Below are positions 3,226 through 60,803 of a stretch of 64,000 bases of DNA, piece after piece (position 1 is the stretch's first letter; the number at the start of each line of letters is the position of its first letter). The translations under genes and the position numbers were made by a program. The stretch is from Octopus sinensis (lineage: Eukaryota). Under the pieces are notes generated by a model. The model made no database searches and was not told the origin of the DNA. It saw only the letters and a list, made by a program, of their open reading frames with translations. Where the stretch lies: the NCBI RefSeq assembly GCF_006345805.1, contig NC_043007.1:8060001-8124000 (forward strand). The letters are read 5' to 3'.

Positions 3226-3380
3226 GACGGGCTTCTTTCAGTTTCCGTCTACCAAATCCACTCACAAGGCTTTGGTCGGCCCGAGGCTATAGTAGAGACA
3301 CTTGCCCAAGGTGCCACGCAGTGGGACTGAACCTGGAACCATGTGGTTGGGAAGCAAGCTTCTTACCACACAACCACTCC
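3223..3380 (-). mobile_element. tRNA-derived CORE-like SINE family A (head)
   Basis: Sense strand reads GGAGTGGTTGTGTGGTAAGAAG..GGTTCAGTCCC..CCTTGGGCAAGTGTCT (A/B boxes plus CORE-like motif). Copies at about 3815-4175(-), 6395-6520(-), 9915-10310(+), 22025-23170(-, nested), 40735-41070(+), 42545-42910(+), 44760-44885(-), 46840-47040(+), 47745-48170(-), 48330-48880(+) and 61478-61825(+). Confidence 0.85.
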
Positions 3381-3383
3381 ATA

Positions 3384-3557
3384 TAGAAGTAGACGTCAGA
3401 TACCTATAATCCACTCTAAAACTTGTTCTCTTTATTCTCGATATCCAATTATTCATAATTTTGTATATTTTCTTGCTCATTCCCTCGCCTTCGACCTGTA
3501 GTTGAATAGAGATGACAAATTTTAGAGTGGATTGTAGGTATTTGACATCTACTTCTA
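3384..3557. mobile_element. MITE with about 50-bp imperfect terminal inverted repeats, TA-flanked
   Basis: TAGAAGTAGACGTCAGATACCTATAATCCACTCTAAAA.. is the inverted counterpart of ..TTTTAGAGTGGATTGTAGGTATTTGACATCTACTTCTA. Confidence 0.65.
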
Positions 3558-7109: not shown

Positions 7110-8080
7110 GTCGCTTCGTTGGCAATGTGTATCAAGGAAGACCAGAAATCAGCGAACCGATTTTTCTGCTCTGAAGATGAGTCAGGTGTGAAATTCATCG
7201 CAGGATTTCAGTCCAATACCGAGGACAGCACTCTACCGCGTAGAAGTGTGTAACAGTGGATCGAAAAGTTTAAAAATGGCAAACAAGTGTGAAGCACAAA
7301 GAAGGAGCAAAACGCCCATCAACCTCTACTACTGATATGAAGATTCATCGAGAGATGGTTCTAGCGAACCGACGTGTGACCTTCGATGAAGTGGCATGTT
7401 CCCTGTAGATTGGTCTGTGTGAAATGGATGCCAAAAGAGCTTATCGAAGCGCATAATCGCAATTGTGTGGAGATCTGTCAGCGATTACTCGACTGCGACA
7501 ACAATGACGGCGAAGTATCTTTGGAGAGGATAGTAACAAGAGTTGAGACTTGGGTCCATCACTGAGCCAGAATCCAAAAGGCAAAGTATGGAGTGGAAAC
7601 ACCCGGAATTGCCAGCGAAAAAGATATTCACGATCAACCTGCTGCAGAAAAAGTTATGCTAACTGTTTTTTAGAATGCAAAACGTCCTGTACTGGAACTT
7701 ACTTGGAAAAGGGGTCTACAATCACCAGTGTGGGTCACAGTGAAGTGCTGGCCTACAAACTGAAACTAGCAATTCACCTCAAAGTCGAGTATTATTGCTG
7801 CATGACAATGCAAGCCCACATACAGCCGCCCACGCCATTGAAATCATTGAAAAATTGGGTTCCGAATTTCTGGAAAACTCTGCATATAGTCCAGATCTCG
7901 CCTTCAAACTATCATCTCTTTTCACTGCTCAAACATCCTTTACGAGATCATTGATTTACAACGGACGAAGAAGCGCAGGAAGCAGTGCATAAAAGATTGC
8001 GCAACCAACCGAAAATCTCTGGTGGAATAAGCAAATTTGTGGACCGTTGGAAGAAGTAAGGAGACTATGTCGAAAATGAG
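7110..8080 (+). pseudogene. Decayed mariner transposase
   Basis: Across frameshifts it reads RPSTS..NRRVT, WMPKEL, IVTRVETWVHH..PESKRQSMEWKH, LLHDNASPHTA, YSPDLA..YHLF and GDYVE. Confidence 0.9.
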
Positions 8081-12089: not shown

Positions 12090-12990
12090 CTGCCACTGTT
12101 CTTGGACCCCTACTGTTTGTTGCATATATTTTAAGATATAGATGCCAATTTGAGGAATGTTACAGTGCTGAAATATGCAGATCACATCAAGCTGTACTTC
12201 GAAATAAAAAGAACAGATCCTATGTGCTATAGATCTTTCCTGCAATCAGACCTGGATACAATGCAGCAATGCATCTCTGACTGTCAACTCAAGCTAGCTG
12301 TGGATAAGTGCATCACCATGCATTTTGGGAGGAAAAATCCATCCTTTACATACTCTCTCAGCAATACCAATCTCAAGAAGTCTTCTAGCGGATGTGATAT
12401 GGACATAATTTTAAACAACGGTGTGCATTGGACAAACCACATCTCTAAGATTGTCCAGAAGGCTGAGGTGGTGCTAGCATCACTCAGTAAGAACTTTGTC
12501 AGCCATTCTCCAGTTACCTATTTAAAATTGTATACGACAATGGTACGTCCACAATTGGAATTTGCATCACCAGTCTGGAACCCCTATCTTGCTCAGCTTA
12601 TAAATCTCCTGGAAACTGTTCAGAAAAGTACAACAAAACGAATACCCACCGTCAGATATCTACCATATTCTGAACATCTTGTTCCCCTGGGCAGGGATAC
12701 ATTTAAGCTCAGACGTCTGGCAACTGACTTGGTTGACACCCACAAGATTATCCACCATCTTTCCAACCAACACCTTTTTGAATTCCATATGACAAACACT
12801 CGCGGACATGCTTATAAAATCAAAAAACAACACAGCACCCATGACTTTTGGAAACATTGTTTCACGCTCAGAATTGCTGAAGCATGGAATAAACTACCCG
12901 CATCAGTTGTTAGCTGTTGAGACACTACATCCTTCAAAACTTCCATGCTTCCTGATATCCACCAGCAGTAGACCTGTAGTTGTAGTGCAC
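12090..12990 (+). mobile_element. CR1/L2-group LINE reverse transcriptase, 5'-truncated
   Basis: VLGPLLF upstream, then ORF 12150-12920 with YADHIKLY (YADD), LQSDLD, VRPQLEFASPVWNPY, TRGH and WNKLP. Confidence 0.9.
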
Positions 12991-36117: not shown

Positions 36118-38139
36118 GATAGGCTGATGAGGTAATATGTCATTCAGAAAGTCCCTTGGGTTGCAATTTGCCCACGATTGCTTTAATTTTTACCTATCCA
36201 TTAACATTGAGTTTTTAAAATATTAATGACTCTATCATTATCCAGTTGCCTGGTGACTTGCCTGGACCATTACAACTCTTCTATGCTACATGTCCCAATT
36301 GAGTGATGTGGCATGAATGTCTGGTTTGCATTTTAGTCACATTGGTCATTCACTGGCTGAAATATCTCCTCTGCACAGCAGTGGCTACAGATGACAGCAA
36401 TAGTTTGCCCAACTGGTTGATCCTGTCTCTTAACACTTTGTTGATTGTTCATCCAATCAGCATTTAGTGACACTCACCGTTGATTCAATAATATTCATTT
36501 ACCAAAACAGTTCACATCTGCCATGTTGCATCCCATGATTTCAGTGTACCCTGGACTCAGTGGTTACATGCTGCTTAACACATAGCTCTGACTCTGACAG
36601 GATCTACTACTCTGGATCAGAGCAGACGTGGGAACAATAATGGCAAAGAGATGGTTCTACACTCTTCAAAACCCTGGAATTCCTGAACCAGATGCATTTT
36701 AAAACCCTAACCCAGTACAAATAATTCCTTAAAATACCTCAAAACTGTAAATTTGTGGGGTCAGAGCAAGTGATTTTAGGTGCTTATATATTGCATATTT
36801 GGTAGTTATTTTATTAAGAGAGGTGACCCTGGAAAGGACTAAATGCTAAGGTGCTTAGTCTAGAGTACCACATTCTACACACCTCTACTCTTCAGCCATT
36901 ATCATATCTGAAAATGATAACAAACTATAAATAATGTCAACCTCTTATCATTTAATTGTGCATATATTGTTTCTTCATTCTTATCAATGTTAGAATGTGA
37001 ATGACTCTTTCTCTCCCTCCCTCTCTCACACACACATTTTAGGATATATGCATGTATGTATATATAAAATAAATGAAGATCAATGGCAGTGCAGTACATA
37101 CTGTAAAGATCTCAATAGCATTGTAATTTATTTGTAATTGGTGGATTGCACAATCCAAAATCCTCAGGCATTGTGAACCATTGAATGTATATACATACAT
37201 ATACATCCACATGTGTATGCATACACATGTTGATATATATATATATTATAAATCTGAAATGCGAAAAGTTTGTTTGTTTGTTTGGTTTTGGCATTGAGAA
37301 CGGGTTAAAGGCCACTAGATTCTGTCGGATTGACTCCAAAATTTACAGGGACATGTAAAATGAGGCGAGGATGCCAGTGGGCTAGGTTAGAAATCGCTAT
37401 CTTAAAAGGTGTCGTTGTTAGGGCCAAAAATGCACTTTGACAAGTCTATTCTCATTCTTTTATGTATCTGTCTTCCTCCGTCACTCACTTTCTATATATA
37501 ACTTCGTTTAACAGCGTCTAACTCCCTTACCTTCATTTTCTCTTTATAACGCTGTGTCACAGCGTTCTATATCTCCCCCCTCCCCGCCTTCGACAGCGCT
37601 TTCACACTCTCTCTCTACGTCTGTCTGCATTCATAGAGAGAATTATCATCGCCACCACCACCACCACCACCACACAATCATGAGAACAAATATTATGAAT
37701 CAGATATTTATTGGGTTTATTTATAGATGTGTGTGTGTGTGTTCTATATATAAATATGTATATATAATATATATATACAAAGTGTATATATCTGTATTTA
37801 TGTATATTAAACTTTTTAATACTTTTTGATAGTTATACATATATTTTTTTAAAATTATAAATATAAATTAATAATTTTAATTTTGAATTTAAATAATTTA
37901 AATTTTTCAATTTTATATTTTATATATTTTGTATGTTATATTTTTATTTTTACGTTTTAGTTTGTTTTTCACTGTTTGATTTGCCTATTAGTGGTTTTAT
38001 CTCTAATTTAATTTATACACATATATATATATAATTTGTATACATTTTATATATAATGCGTGCACACACACACACACACAAATATATATATATATAATAT
38101 ATATATATAATATATATATATATAATATATATATATAAA

Positions 38140-41873: not shown

Positions 41874-41912
<39 letters not shown>

Positions 41913-41989
41913 AATATTAGGGAATAAATCCAAATTTACAGGGAAAAAAAATCAGATTTAGGATTAAATCCAATTTTATAGTAAAATAT

Positions 41990-42313
41990 TATATAATATT
42001 AATTAGAGACAAAACCACTATTTTGCAAAACAAACAAGGAAAGACTTAATCAATACATAAGATTTTAATAAAAAGTCAAAAAAACCGCCACTACAATTGT
42101 TTCTTGTCCTGATCGACAATCTTCAGGTGGACTTCCAATTTTCAAGTCAGTTTCAAATTATGAAACTGACTTGAAAATTGGAAGTCCACCTGAAGATTGT
42201 CGATCAGGACAAGAAACAATTGTAGTGGCGGTTTTTTTGACTTTTTATTAAAATCTTATGTATTGATTAAGTCTTTCCTTGTTTGTTTTGCAAAATAGTG
42301 GTTTTGTCTCTAA

Positions 42314-42326
<13 letters not shown>
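41990..42326. repeat. Perfect inverted repeat, 166-bp arms, 5-nt loop (AATTA, 42156-42160)
   Basis: 41990-42155 is the reverse complement of 42161-42326 at every position checked. Confidence 0.95.
42186..42228 (+). ncRNA. Minimal type I hammerhead ribozyme (mirror copy on - strand at 42088-42130)
   Basis: ccac-CTGAAGA-ttgtc-gatcag-gacaa-GAAAC-aatt-GTA-gtgg. Full core, stems I and II, palindromic stem III (ACAATTGT); predicted cleavage after 42224. Confidence 0.85.
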
Positions 42327-42355
<29 letters not shown>

Positions 42356-59684: not shown

Positions 59685-60167
59685 ATTTCAAAACATGTGT
59701 AGAAGAGTCAACTTGTGTATTGAAAATGAAGGAAGACATTTTCAACAGCTCGTATAAATTTCTTTTTAAAAGTTAATGTATTCTTTCGTAGTTTTATACC
59801 ATCTTATAAATATTTATTTTGCAATAAAATACTTACTGTGGAGAGACTTTCTGAACACCCTGTATATATATCGAATACATATACACATTGTATGTACATT
59901 GCTTGTTTGCTGCTCAGCTGTGATTTGATGCTGTGGAGATGACTCTCTCAGAGTGACACGTGTTAATACCCCTGAAAATCATAGTCATAGACAGGCAAGA
60001 CAACTCACCCCAAATCTCATTCAGGAGGGATAGTCATTCATGTTTCACCATTTTTGTGACACACACACACACCTATATATAATCATCATCACCATATTAA
60101 TGTTGACTTTTCATTCACCCTATCCAAGCATAGAATTATGATGAGGATACACACACACACACACATA

Positions 60168-60726
60168 TATGTATGGCAAATGGAAGATGGAATATCTGAG
60201 AATTTATTATTAATCACAACAATTGTTTCAACACATCTAGAATCGATTCCTCATGGGTGGGACACTCCACAACTGGTTCAGGAGCTTCCGGCAGTGCAGA
60301 TGTATCTCGTCGGGTGATAAATAAATAAATCCAGACGGAGGAAGTATCTTCATTTATTTAGAAGATCAAAAAATAAAATCACAGATAGCAAAAAGAGAAA
60401 CGAACACGTAATCCAGTGAGAAAAGTATTTAAAAAAATTCTCTTTTTCTGCATCTGTGATTTTATTTTTGATCTTCTAAATAAATGAAGATATTTCCTCT
60501 GTCTGGCTGCTTTTCTTTCTACAAAACAGGAAGTTACATTGCGGAACAGTTATTTTAACGAGTTGTATTTATTTATCACCCAACGAGATACATCTGCACT
60601 GCCGGAAGCTCCTGAACCAGTCGTTGAGTGTCCCACTCGAGAGGAATCAATGCTAGATGTGTCGAAACAAGTGTCGTGATTAATAATAAATTCTTGTATA
60701 TTCCATCTTTCATTTGCCATATACAT
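60168..60726. mobile_element. Nested imperfect palindromic element (Penelope pLTR-like) with an HHR in each outer arm
   Basis: Arm A 60168-60330 / A' 60566-60726; arm B 60331-60400 / B' 60438-60506. Confidence 0.8.
60213..60318 (-). ncRNA. Type I hammerhead with extended stem II (U4C core variant)
   Basis: atcac-CCGACGA-gatacatctg-[about 57 nt]-tagatgtgtt-GAAAC-aatt-GTT-gtgat. The mirror copy at 60575-60680 has core CCAACGA and triplet GTC. Confidence 0.7.
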
Positions 60727-60803
60727 AACAATCACTGTGAAAGTGACCAAGCTTTACCAGTAAGCTACCAGGTGTAAACCATTCGTTTTTATTATCCATT
60801 ATG

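What the first reader, a model, noticed from the sequence alone, without database searches (positions are those of the whole stretch)
41990..42326. Perfect 166-bp-arm palindrome with an intact minimal hammerhead on each strand
Seen: no mismatches found between arms, a 5-nt loop, TA tracts on both sides, and ccac-CTGAAGA-ttgtc(gatcag)gacaa-GAAAC-aatt-GTA-gtgg at 42186-42228. Stem II closes with U-A rather than the usual purine-pyrimidine pair. Inference: a very young inverted pLTR made by template switching. A read-through transcript from either strand forms a 166-bp hairpin that would mask the ribozyme and could be an ADAR or Dicer substrate; the DNA could extrude a cruciform.
Basis: partly seen in the sequence, partly recalled or inferred. 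Interest (0 to 1): 0.75.

Follow-up and report, generated by a model that had tools for sequence, protein, structure and literature searches.

The report
Spliced Penelope leader, inserted head-to-head
This palindrome is one of many short back-to-back insertions of the front end of a Penelope-type jumping gene, and both halves lack the element's intron, so they were likely copied twice from its spliced messenger RNA, which bears on the open question of what template these elements copy; self-cutting by the ribozyme motif is untested.

Summary
In detail: perfect 166-bp arms, a 5-nt loop and a hammerhead core on each strand. The insertion is larger than reported (41909-42326): an 81-nt tail extends the left arm only. 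It is a solo inverted pLTR pair of a Hydra-clade Penelope-like element (PLE), whose RT+GIY-YIG-type ORF lies in other copies. Both arms carry an exact exon junction where longer copies hold a ~1.0-1.1 kb GT-AG intron; the genome has 182 spliced-junction and 524 acceptor pattern matches. 98 of 100 spliced arms stop within a 27-nt first exon, and 56 of 58 two-armed insertions pair a tailed with an untailed arm. Best reading: two cDNAs primed on opposite target strands at two internal sites of spliced sense mRNA, joined head to head; fold-back of one cDNA fits this locus equally but not some sisters. The U-A stem II pair is a family trait. No read spanned the locus; cleavage and transcription are untested. 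This scan reported the same reading before for other DNA of this genome (e1-9957499). Known structure, mechanistically informative variant.

The parts
41874..41907 (.). Left (TA)n tract, target microsatellite
   Evidence: Sequence; nearly all sister insertions end in (TA)n on both sides
41909..41989 (-). One-sided 81-nt PLE 'tail' between the two inferred reverse-transcription start sites; in ORF-bearing copies it continues to the ATG
   Evidence: Shared by sister copies on one arm only; match to ORF-linked copy L073 ends at about 41909
41909..42164 (-). Long (tailed) arm: 25 nt of exon 1 spliced to exon 2, through the tail
   Evidence: exon 2 + tail is 98.7% identical to the tailed arm of L035 and 97.8-98.3% to intron-bearing arms such as L122, L034, L073
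42088..42130 (-). Type I minimal hammerhead motif, minus-strand copy; predicted cut after 42092
   Evidence: activity untested
42139..42140 (-). Exon 1/exon 2 splice junction in the long arm
   Evidence: Mirror of 42176/42177; intron-bearing copies read AAA|GTATGT...TTTTAG|ATTGG
42152..42164 (.). Head-to-head join: TTCA-AATTA-TGAA, a 4-bp microhomology around the 5-nt loop; a natural mini-hairpin of exon 1
   Evidence: Sequence against the genomic exon 1 of L074
42161..42326 (+). Short (untailed) arm: 16 nt of exon 1 spliced to exon 2, ending at the first inferred start site
42176..42177 (+). Exon 1/exon 2 splice junction in the short arm (intron of 1032-1103 nt absent)
   Evidence: L034 1044, L035 1032, L040 1041, L062 1103 nt; junction cannot slide, so it is exact at GT-AG
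42186..42228 (+). Type I minimal hammerhead motif; 4-bp stem I, 5-bp stem II closed by U-A, 2-bp stem III with self-complementary ACAAUUGU; predicted cut after 42224
   Evidence: activity untested
42327..42348 (.). Right (TA)n tract (boundary with the arm is ambiguous by about 6 nt)
   Evidence: Sequence

Best explanation
The stretch 41909-42326 is a non-coding insertion of two intron-less copies of the front end of a Hydra-clade Penelope-like element, set head to head in a TA repeat, and it was likely made by two reverse transcriptions of spliced sense mRNA, each primed from one nicked target strand. Shown: family membership, the exact loss of a GT-AG intron in both arms, a sharp 5' limit at a 27-nt first exon, and the one-tailed/one-untailed pairing. 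Inferred: the 5' limit is the transcription start; the element's protein nicks both strands of (TA)n and starts cDNA at two internal RNA sites about 81 nt apart (ends of the short arm and of the tail); both cDNAs run towards the RNA 5' end, the downstream one displacing or stalling at the upstream one; their 3' ends are joined by microhomology, helped by the exon-1 mini-hairpin. The two cDNAs likely come from one RNA or one RNP. The hammerhead is a passenger that was uncleaved in the template and would be masked in any read-through transcript; the locus itself most likely has no function.
For: Intron: AAA|GTATGT...TTTTAG|ATTGG in longer copies, absent at 42176/42177. Counts: 182 spliced-junction and 524 acceptor exact-pattern matches, controls 0; spliced junctions occur in four sequence variants among the 100 listed, three exon-2 variants of which also occur among intron-bearing copies, so splicing happened repeatedly. 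5' limit: 98 of 100 spliced arms match at most 27 nt upstream of the junction, 11 exactly 27, one 28, one 48 or more; the limit falls on the A of TCACT, the Inr-like motif named in PMC3846280. Intron-bearing arms have no such short limit: 54 to over 1511 nt, 12 of 30 at least 1490. Pairing: 56 of 58 classifiable two-armed insertions are tailed + untailed, 2 untailed + untailed, 0 tailed + tailed (p about 1e-14 against 0.5). Either arm can be the truncated one (15 untailed, 12 tailed). L104 and L158 join a full untailed arm to a tail-only arm with no overlap; L066 joins a spliced tailed arm to a 3-kb intron-bearing arm. Same-RNA sign: 31 both-spliced (27 called by script, 4 by eye) against 1 mixed, where about 85% mixed is expected from independent draws. 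In vitro precedent: the Anolis PLE protein cuts and extends both strands, starts at two internal sites bounding the tail, and uses uncleaved RNA (PMC11167929). ORF and Hydra motifs.
Against: At this locus the tailed arm is the more complete one and the join lies on the exon-1 hairpin, which single-cDNA fold-back predicts equally well; short snap-backs are visible in L141, L150, L161, L163. Asymmetric sisters could arise by later deletion or inversion at the palindrome centre. The transcription start is inferred from DNA only; no RNA data were laid. A few spliced copies run past the limit (L145, L029/L033, L038/L041, L198), so not all templates start there. 0 of 20 informative ORF-linked copies are spliced, so the template of full-length copies is not shown to be the same RNA. 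An extra cap-derived G is inconclusive (G before 6 of 11 full arms, 5 explainable by the partner arm). The census covers the first 100 of 182 matches and is conditioned on a pattern needing 11 nt of exon 1. Pfam and PDB gave no RT or GIY-YIG hit.
Confidence: 0.7

Rival explanations
1. One cDNA, primed at the tail end on spliced sense RNA, runs off the 5' end, folds back on the exon-1 hairpin and copies itself back to the first site, where it is joined to the other target strand.
For: Fits this locus exactly: tailed arm complete to exon-1 base 3, join at TTCA/TGAA around AATTA. Explains identical arms and shared splicing state. Short snap-backs in L141, L150, L161, L163.
Against: Cannot give L104 and L158 (no overlap between arms) or L066 (one arm spliced, one not). 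In 12 of 27 tailed/untailed pairs with one truncated arm the untailed arm is the complete one; L001 has the window's join in the opposite sense. These need later rearrangement under this model.
Confidence: 0.19
2. The palindrome is a non-autonomous unit (MITE-like or retrozyme-like) that is copied whole from a palindromic master.
For: High copy number, TA flanks, a few joins recur.
Against: Centres differ from copy to copy (4 to 262 nt between query-length arms), one centre is host DNA from 2 kb away, ends are asymmetric, and recurring joins occur in different subfamilies (L179 versus L180, L100). Arms are pieces of an ORF-bearing PLE.
Confidence: 0.04
3. Self-priming on an antisense RNA template, as proposed for head-to-head PLE insertions (PMC3846280), here from an already spliced genomic copy.
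For: Spliced genomic copies with upstream sequence exist; all 20 informative ORF-linked copies keep the intron, which that model explains.
Against: Needs separate spliced masters in at least four variants, each itself made from sense RNA; does not explain the limit at an Inr-like motif or that the fixed 3' ends, not the 5' ends, abut the target.
Confidence: 0.04
4. The locus is a selected RNA device: a hairpin that gates a ribozyme through ADAR editing or feeds Dicer.
For: Any read-through transcript would form a 166-bp duplex (-274 kcal/mol).
Against: It is one of many near-identical young insertions with the same layout; perfection is shared by 8 of 30 sisters; no transcription, editing or conservation evidence was obtained.
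Confidence: 0.02
5. Fold-back assembly artefact.
For: No contig of four independent runs spans the palindrome (short contigs, uninformative).
Against: The mirror stops at the family's biological end; the flanks differ; 60 of 76 sampled insertions have an inverted partner with the same one-tail rule and different joins; short-read contigs show other inverted joins of this family (table 5).
Confidence: 0.01

Closest known systems
EN+ PLE insertions with inverted 5'-truncated pLTR and one-sided tail (Pen2a_Av in PMC3846280, passages; Fig. 2 legend of PMC8557442, passages)
   Same: Head-to-head inverted terminal repeats, palindrome at the join, tail on one end only, solo pLTRs without ORF.
   Different: Tail is 81 nt rather than 30-40; both arms are spliced and stop at a first exon; PMC3846280 proposed an antisense template and intron retention.
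Hydra clade of PLEs, including Hydra-1_Obim (PMC8557442 section 11 and supplement passages)
   Same: DKT, CxCX5C linker, CxxC and CxH around the EN end, no CCHH, (TA)n target, hammerhead; the listed Hydra-1_Obim hammerhead also lacks a G-C closing pair in stem II (read by eye).
   Different: A different family: KWK for RWK, over 5 kb against under 3 kb, an asparagine-rich insert between RT and EN, a long 3' region with a 1-kb pLTR intron; Hydra-1_Obim is listed with no pLTR.
Minimal hammerheads of metazoan PLEs (PMC4209133, parts 1-2 of 4)
   Same: Type I core, short stem I, tiny palindromic stem III suited to dimers; pairs on opposite strands 100-700 bp apart are already reported there.
   Different: Lacks the conserved G10.1-C11.1 pair and the unpaired base after position 9; closing pair varies U-A, U-U, A-U.
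Poseidon of Anolis carolinensis in vitro (PMC11167929, parts 1-2 of 4)
   Same: Two internal start sites bounding the tail; both target strands extended; template spans the hammerhead cut site.
   Different: Different clade; that work does not address splicing, head-to-head joins or pairing of the two sites in one insertion; here the start sites resemble the TA target, there no homology was seen.
Drosophila virilis Penelope 5' UTR intron (PMC2377424, passages)
   Same: Short first exon (46 nt there, 27 here), intron in the pLTR ending just before hammerhead stem I; most transcripts spliced.
   Different: Genomic copies are described as retaining the intron; here about a quarter of junction matches are spliced.
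L1 twin priming (recalled, no call)
   Same: Two primers from opposite target strands on one RNA, inverted halves joined by microhomology; L104 and L158 have that non-overlapping layout.
   Different: Here both starts are fixed internal sites and the halves usually overlap, giving a palindrome.

Membership tests
EN+ Penelope-like element (source family) | Single ORF with PLE-type RT followed by GIY-YIG endonuclease | tested here: met
   ORF pieces in L064, L065, L071, L073 with YRDD and VVY...YIG; motifs match Hydra-1_Obim by eye; all copies seen are frameshifted or cut; no Pfam or PDB hit. The window itself holds no ORF.
EN+ Penelope-like element (source family) | pLTR on both sides of the ORF, partial tandems, inverted truncated copy, one-sided tail | tested here: met
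   L073 and L065 have exon 2 before and after the ORF; tail on one arm in 56 of 58
EN+ Penelope-like element (source family) | Intron retained in genomic copies | tested here: inconclusive
   Met by 524 acceptor matches and 20 of 20 informative ORF-linked copies; not met by this locus and 182 spliced matches
EN+ Penelope-like element (source family) | Target-site duplication | not testable with these tools
   Both ends lie in (TA)n; no empty allele was found
Hydra clade | DKT in place of DKG | tested here: met
   SDKT at residue 128 of the L073 frame
Hydra clade | CxCX5C linker | tested here: met
   CTCRDKSNC
Hydra clade | CCHH absent from EN; CxxC and CxH near the conserved E and N | tested here: met
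   One Cys in the GIY-YIG core, CxH found by pattern; CYLC read by eye (my CxxC pattern was too tight and returned none)
Hydra clade | RWK motif | tested here: inconclusive
   KWKA, a conservative change
Hydra clade | (TA)n insertion preference and a hammerhead | tested here: met
Hydra clade | Placement in the RT phylogeny | not tested
   No tree built; reference proteins were seen only as supplement text
Type I minimal hammerhead ribozyme | Core CUGANGA, GAAA, UH with stems I-III | tested here: met
   stem II changes on both sides (U-A to A-U in 8 of 194, likely one event); stem III variant keeps a G-U self-pair (24 of 194)
Type I minimal hammerhead ribozyme | G10.1-C11.1 closing pair | tested here: not met
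   0 of 194; pattern was built on this family's stem I
Type I minimal hammerhead ribozyme | Self-cleavage (as dimer or with protein) | not testable with these tools
   None of 29 truncated partner arms starts at the predicted cut (exon 2 base 49), so no genomic trace of cleavage
MITE / foldback DNA element | Symmetric terminal inverted repeats and a fixed interior | tested here: not met
   One-sided tail, variable centres, spliced junction
Non-LTR retrozyme | Head-to-tail tandem units | tested here: not met
   This locus is head-to-head; tandem mini-units of the family exist elsewhere

The most novel reading that the evidence does not exclude
Penelope-like elements copy spliced sense mRNA by obligatory paired initiation: one protein dimer starts two cDNAs at the two ends of the tail on one RNA, and the palindromic stubs are run-offs from the 5' pLTR. 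Intron 'retention' then needs no antisense template: only the cap-proximal intron is spliced, while the copy in the 3' or internal pLTR stays and rebuilds the promoter. Each stub maps the element's transcription start and splice sites in DNA.
Probability: 0.4. Interest if true: 0.7.

Novelty: new variant of a known kind. Interest (0 to 1): 0.5.

Why it matters
Why PLEs keep introns, and how they build inverted ends and a tail, are stated as open in PMC3846280 and PMC8557442; the former proposed an antisense template. A family with 182 spliced and 524 intron-bearing junctions, a sharp first-exon limit and a near-invariant pairing of two ends shows that spliced sense RNA is copied and gives concrete predictions (start site, two priming sites, one RNA) for the existing in vitro system. 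The single locus is otherwise an ordinary dead insertion. I found no paper describing spliced genomic PLE copies in searches, but the 2003 and 2005 papers on PLE introns were not read, and this scan has already noted the same thing elsewhere.

Tried and rejected
Rfam at gathering score: 0 matches. Taking the 144-nt centre of L005 for upstream element sequence: it is host DNA from 2 kb away. Pfam on four ORF pieces: no RT or GIY-YIG family, only a sub-threshold Clathrin_H_link. PDB by sequence: nothing (E 1.1). Protein search among longer proteins: one unnamed 824-aa relative at 34%. Laying four DNA-type runs on the locus: only short contigs, none spanning it, no empty allele, so neither support nor refutation for this locus. 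RNA evidence for splicing and the start site was not obtained; it stays open. Cap-derived G: inconclusive. Hammerhead cut as a source of 5' ends: 0 of 29. Back-splicing as origin of tandem mini-units: joins differ among four units and only L199/L200 lies near the acceptor, with no donor at the other side; not supported. Arm homogenisation: arms are no closer to each other (mean 2.2 differences in 140 nt) than to the nearest other locus (1.7), median other 8.2; not supported. Rows dropped before counts: L092 (missed by script, read by eye), L076 and L174 (ends not classifiable), 16 units with no partner within 350 nt. The '1 of 33' printed was a typed label; the count is 1 mixed against 31.

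Full report
Observation. The arms 41990-42155 and 42161-42326 are perfectly complementary around AATTA. The hammerhead motif lies as described, with a mirror copy at 42088-42130. Rfam has no match at gathering score. The genome is 2.72 Gb in 13,516 contigs; its size and simple repeats suggest an octopus (my inference; earlier scan notes also say so).

Family and true extent. One arm finds 625 first-look candidates; the 40 scored give 66 matches at 91-100%, mostly as opposed pairs 4-262 nt apart. In sisters, as in the window, one arm continues about 80 nt further before the (TA)n tract. The window insertion is therefore 41909-42326 with an 81-nt one-sided tail. An inverted truncated pLTR plus a one-sided tail is the described layout of EN+ PLE insertions (PMC3846280 and PMC8557442, passages), and opposed minimal hammerheads 100-700 bp apart are reported (PMC4209133).

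Source element. [quoted passage not shown] It has DKT, CxCX5C, CxxC, CxH, no CCHH and KWK for RWK, matching the Hydra clade (PMC8557442 section 11) and, by eye, Hydra-1_Obim in its supplement. Pfam and PDB gave no support; no tree was built.

The new point: both arms are spliced. Longer copies carry 1032-1103 nt between TTGAAA and ATTGG, starting GTATGT and ending TTTTAG. The window lacks exactly this stretch at 42176/42177 and at the mirror site. Exact patterns count 182 spliced junctions and 524 acceptors, with reversed-pattern controls at 0. The spliced form occurs in four variants among the 100 listed, so it arose repeatedly. D. virilis Penelope has a comparable 5' intron, spliced in most transcripts yet retained in genomic copies (PMC2377424, passages).

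Census of the first 100 of 182 spliced junctions (77 insertion units; 76 parsed by script). 98 of 100 arms match at most 27 nt upstream of the junction, 11 exactly 27; one matches 28, one runs on. The limit is the A of an Inr-like TCACT, which I take as the transcription start. Intron-bearing arms extend 54 to over 1511 nt, 12 of 30 at least 1490. 60 of 76 units have an inverted partner within 350 nt; of 58 with classifiable ends, 56 pair a tailed with an untailed arm (p about 1e-14). The truncated arm is the untailed one in 15 and the tailed one in 12. L104 and L158 join a full untailed arm to a tail-only arm. L066 joins a spliced tailed arm to a 3-kb intron-bearing arm. Both arms are spliced in 31 units (27 by script, 4 by eye) against this 1 mixed case; independent draws would give about 85% mixed. 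No spliced arm runs into the ORF, and 0 of 20 informative ORF-linked copies (of 30 fetched) are spliced.

Mechanism. In vitro, an Anolis PLE protein cuts and extends both strands, starts at two internal RNA sites bounding the tail, prefers uncleaved RNA and is predicted to dimerise (PMC11167929). Applied to the 5' pLTR of a spliced mRNA, this yields two short cDNAs, one with the tail and one without, ending at the cap; joining their 3' ends gives this structure. I give it 0.7. At this locus the join uses TTCA/TGAA of the exon-1 hairpin, so fold-back of one tailed cDNA gives the same sequence (0.19); snap-backs in L141, L150, L161 and L163 show that fold-back happens, but it cannot make L104, L158 or L066. 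The antisense-template model of PMC3846280 does not fit spliced arms without extra masters. ORF-bearing copies keep the intron, perhaps because the 3' or internal copy is rarely spliced; that step is inference, and a few spliced copies do extend upstream.

Ribozyme. Core and stems are intact; stem III is 2 bp with a self-complementary loop, the dimer type. The stem II closing pair is U-A in 116, U-U in 69, A-U in 8 and A-C in 1 of 194 contexts, never the usual G-C. None of 29 truncated arms starts at the predicted cut. In a read-through RNA from either strand the antisense arm comes first and the duplex is -274 kcal/mol against -5.5, so masking is predicted. Cleavage, transcription, editing and dicing are untested.

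Artefact. Four runs held only short contigs, none spanning the locus. An artefact is still unlikely: the mirror stops at the family's own end, the flanks differ and sisters follow the same rule with other joins.

Novelty. The structure is known; spliced, start-site-bounded arms were not found in searches (the 2003 and 2005 papers on PLE introns were not read; the bioRxiv retrozyme paper was seen as passages only, its supplements closed). This scan has noted the same reading for other DNA of this genome and in other genomes; my reading was formed before those look-ups, and they are not independent support. Verdict: real, a new variant of a known kind, interest 0.5.

Noticed in passing
window 60166-60727: 562-bp element with 162-nt inverted arms at 90% and TA-rich ends; looks like a MITE or non-autonomous DNA transposon.
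   Followed up: no
window 37964-38017: Old fragment 80% similar to the 3' end of the short arm, beside a TA tract; likely a related older PLE end.
   Followed up: partly
window 12135-12920 (+) and 7547-7954 (+): Open frames that resemble a LINE RT tail and a mariner transposase piece (resemblance recalled, not tested).
   Followed up: no
L005 1357-1500: The 144-nt centre of a sister palindrome is host DNA copied from about 2 kb away (99%): a templated insertion at the head-to-head join. L147, L151 and L178 also have non-element centres.
   Followed up: partly
L187, L196, L199/L200, L201: Head-to-tail tandems of 320-410 nt units (part of exon 2 + tail + ORF start), three of four with the hammerhead region; retrozyme-like derivatives of the same family.
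   Followed up: partly
L073 about 3250-3550; L064 5398-5650: Asparagine-rich insert between RT and endonuclease (37.5% N over 80 residues), like the N-rich inserts described for Adineta Penelope elements (PMC3846280).
   Followed up: no
L066 4887-7066 (+): A second Hydra-like PLE family, 38% identical over 260 residues of RT, without the N-rich insert.
   Followed up: partly
L071, L072, L073: The promoter/exon 1 module is tandemly repeated at about 1.2 kb spacing in the 3' region of some copies, giving alternative donors for the same acceptor.
   Followed up: no
L195 1411-1490, L190 584-671: Copies whose 5' truncation falls at the first inferred start site (exon 2 base 150-153), as if cDNA synthesis stalls there.
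   Followed up: no
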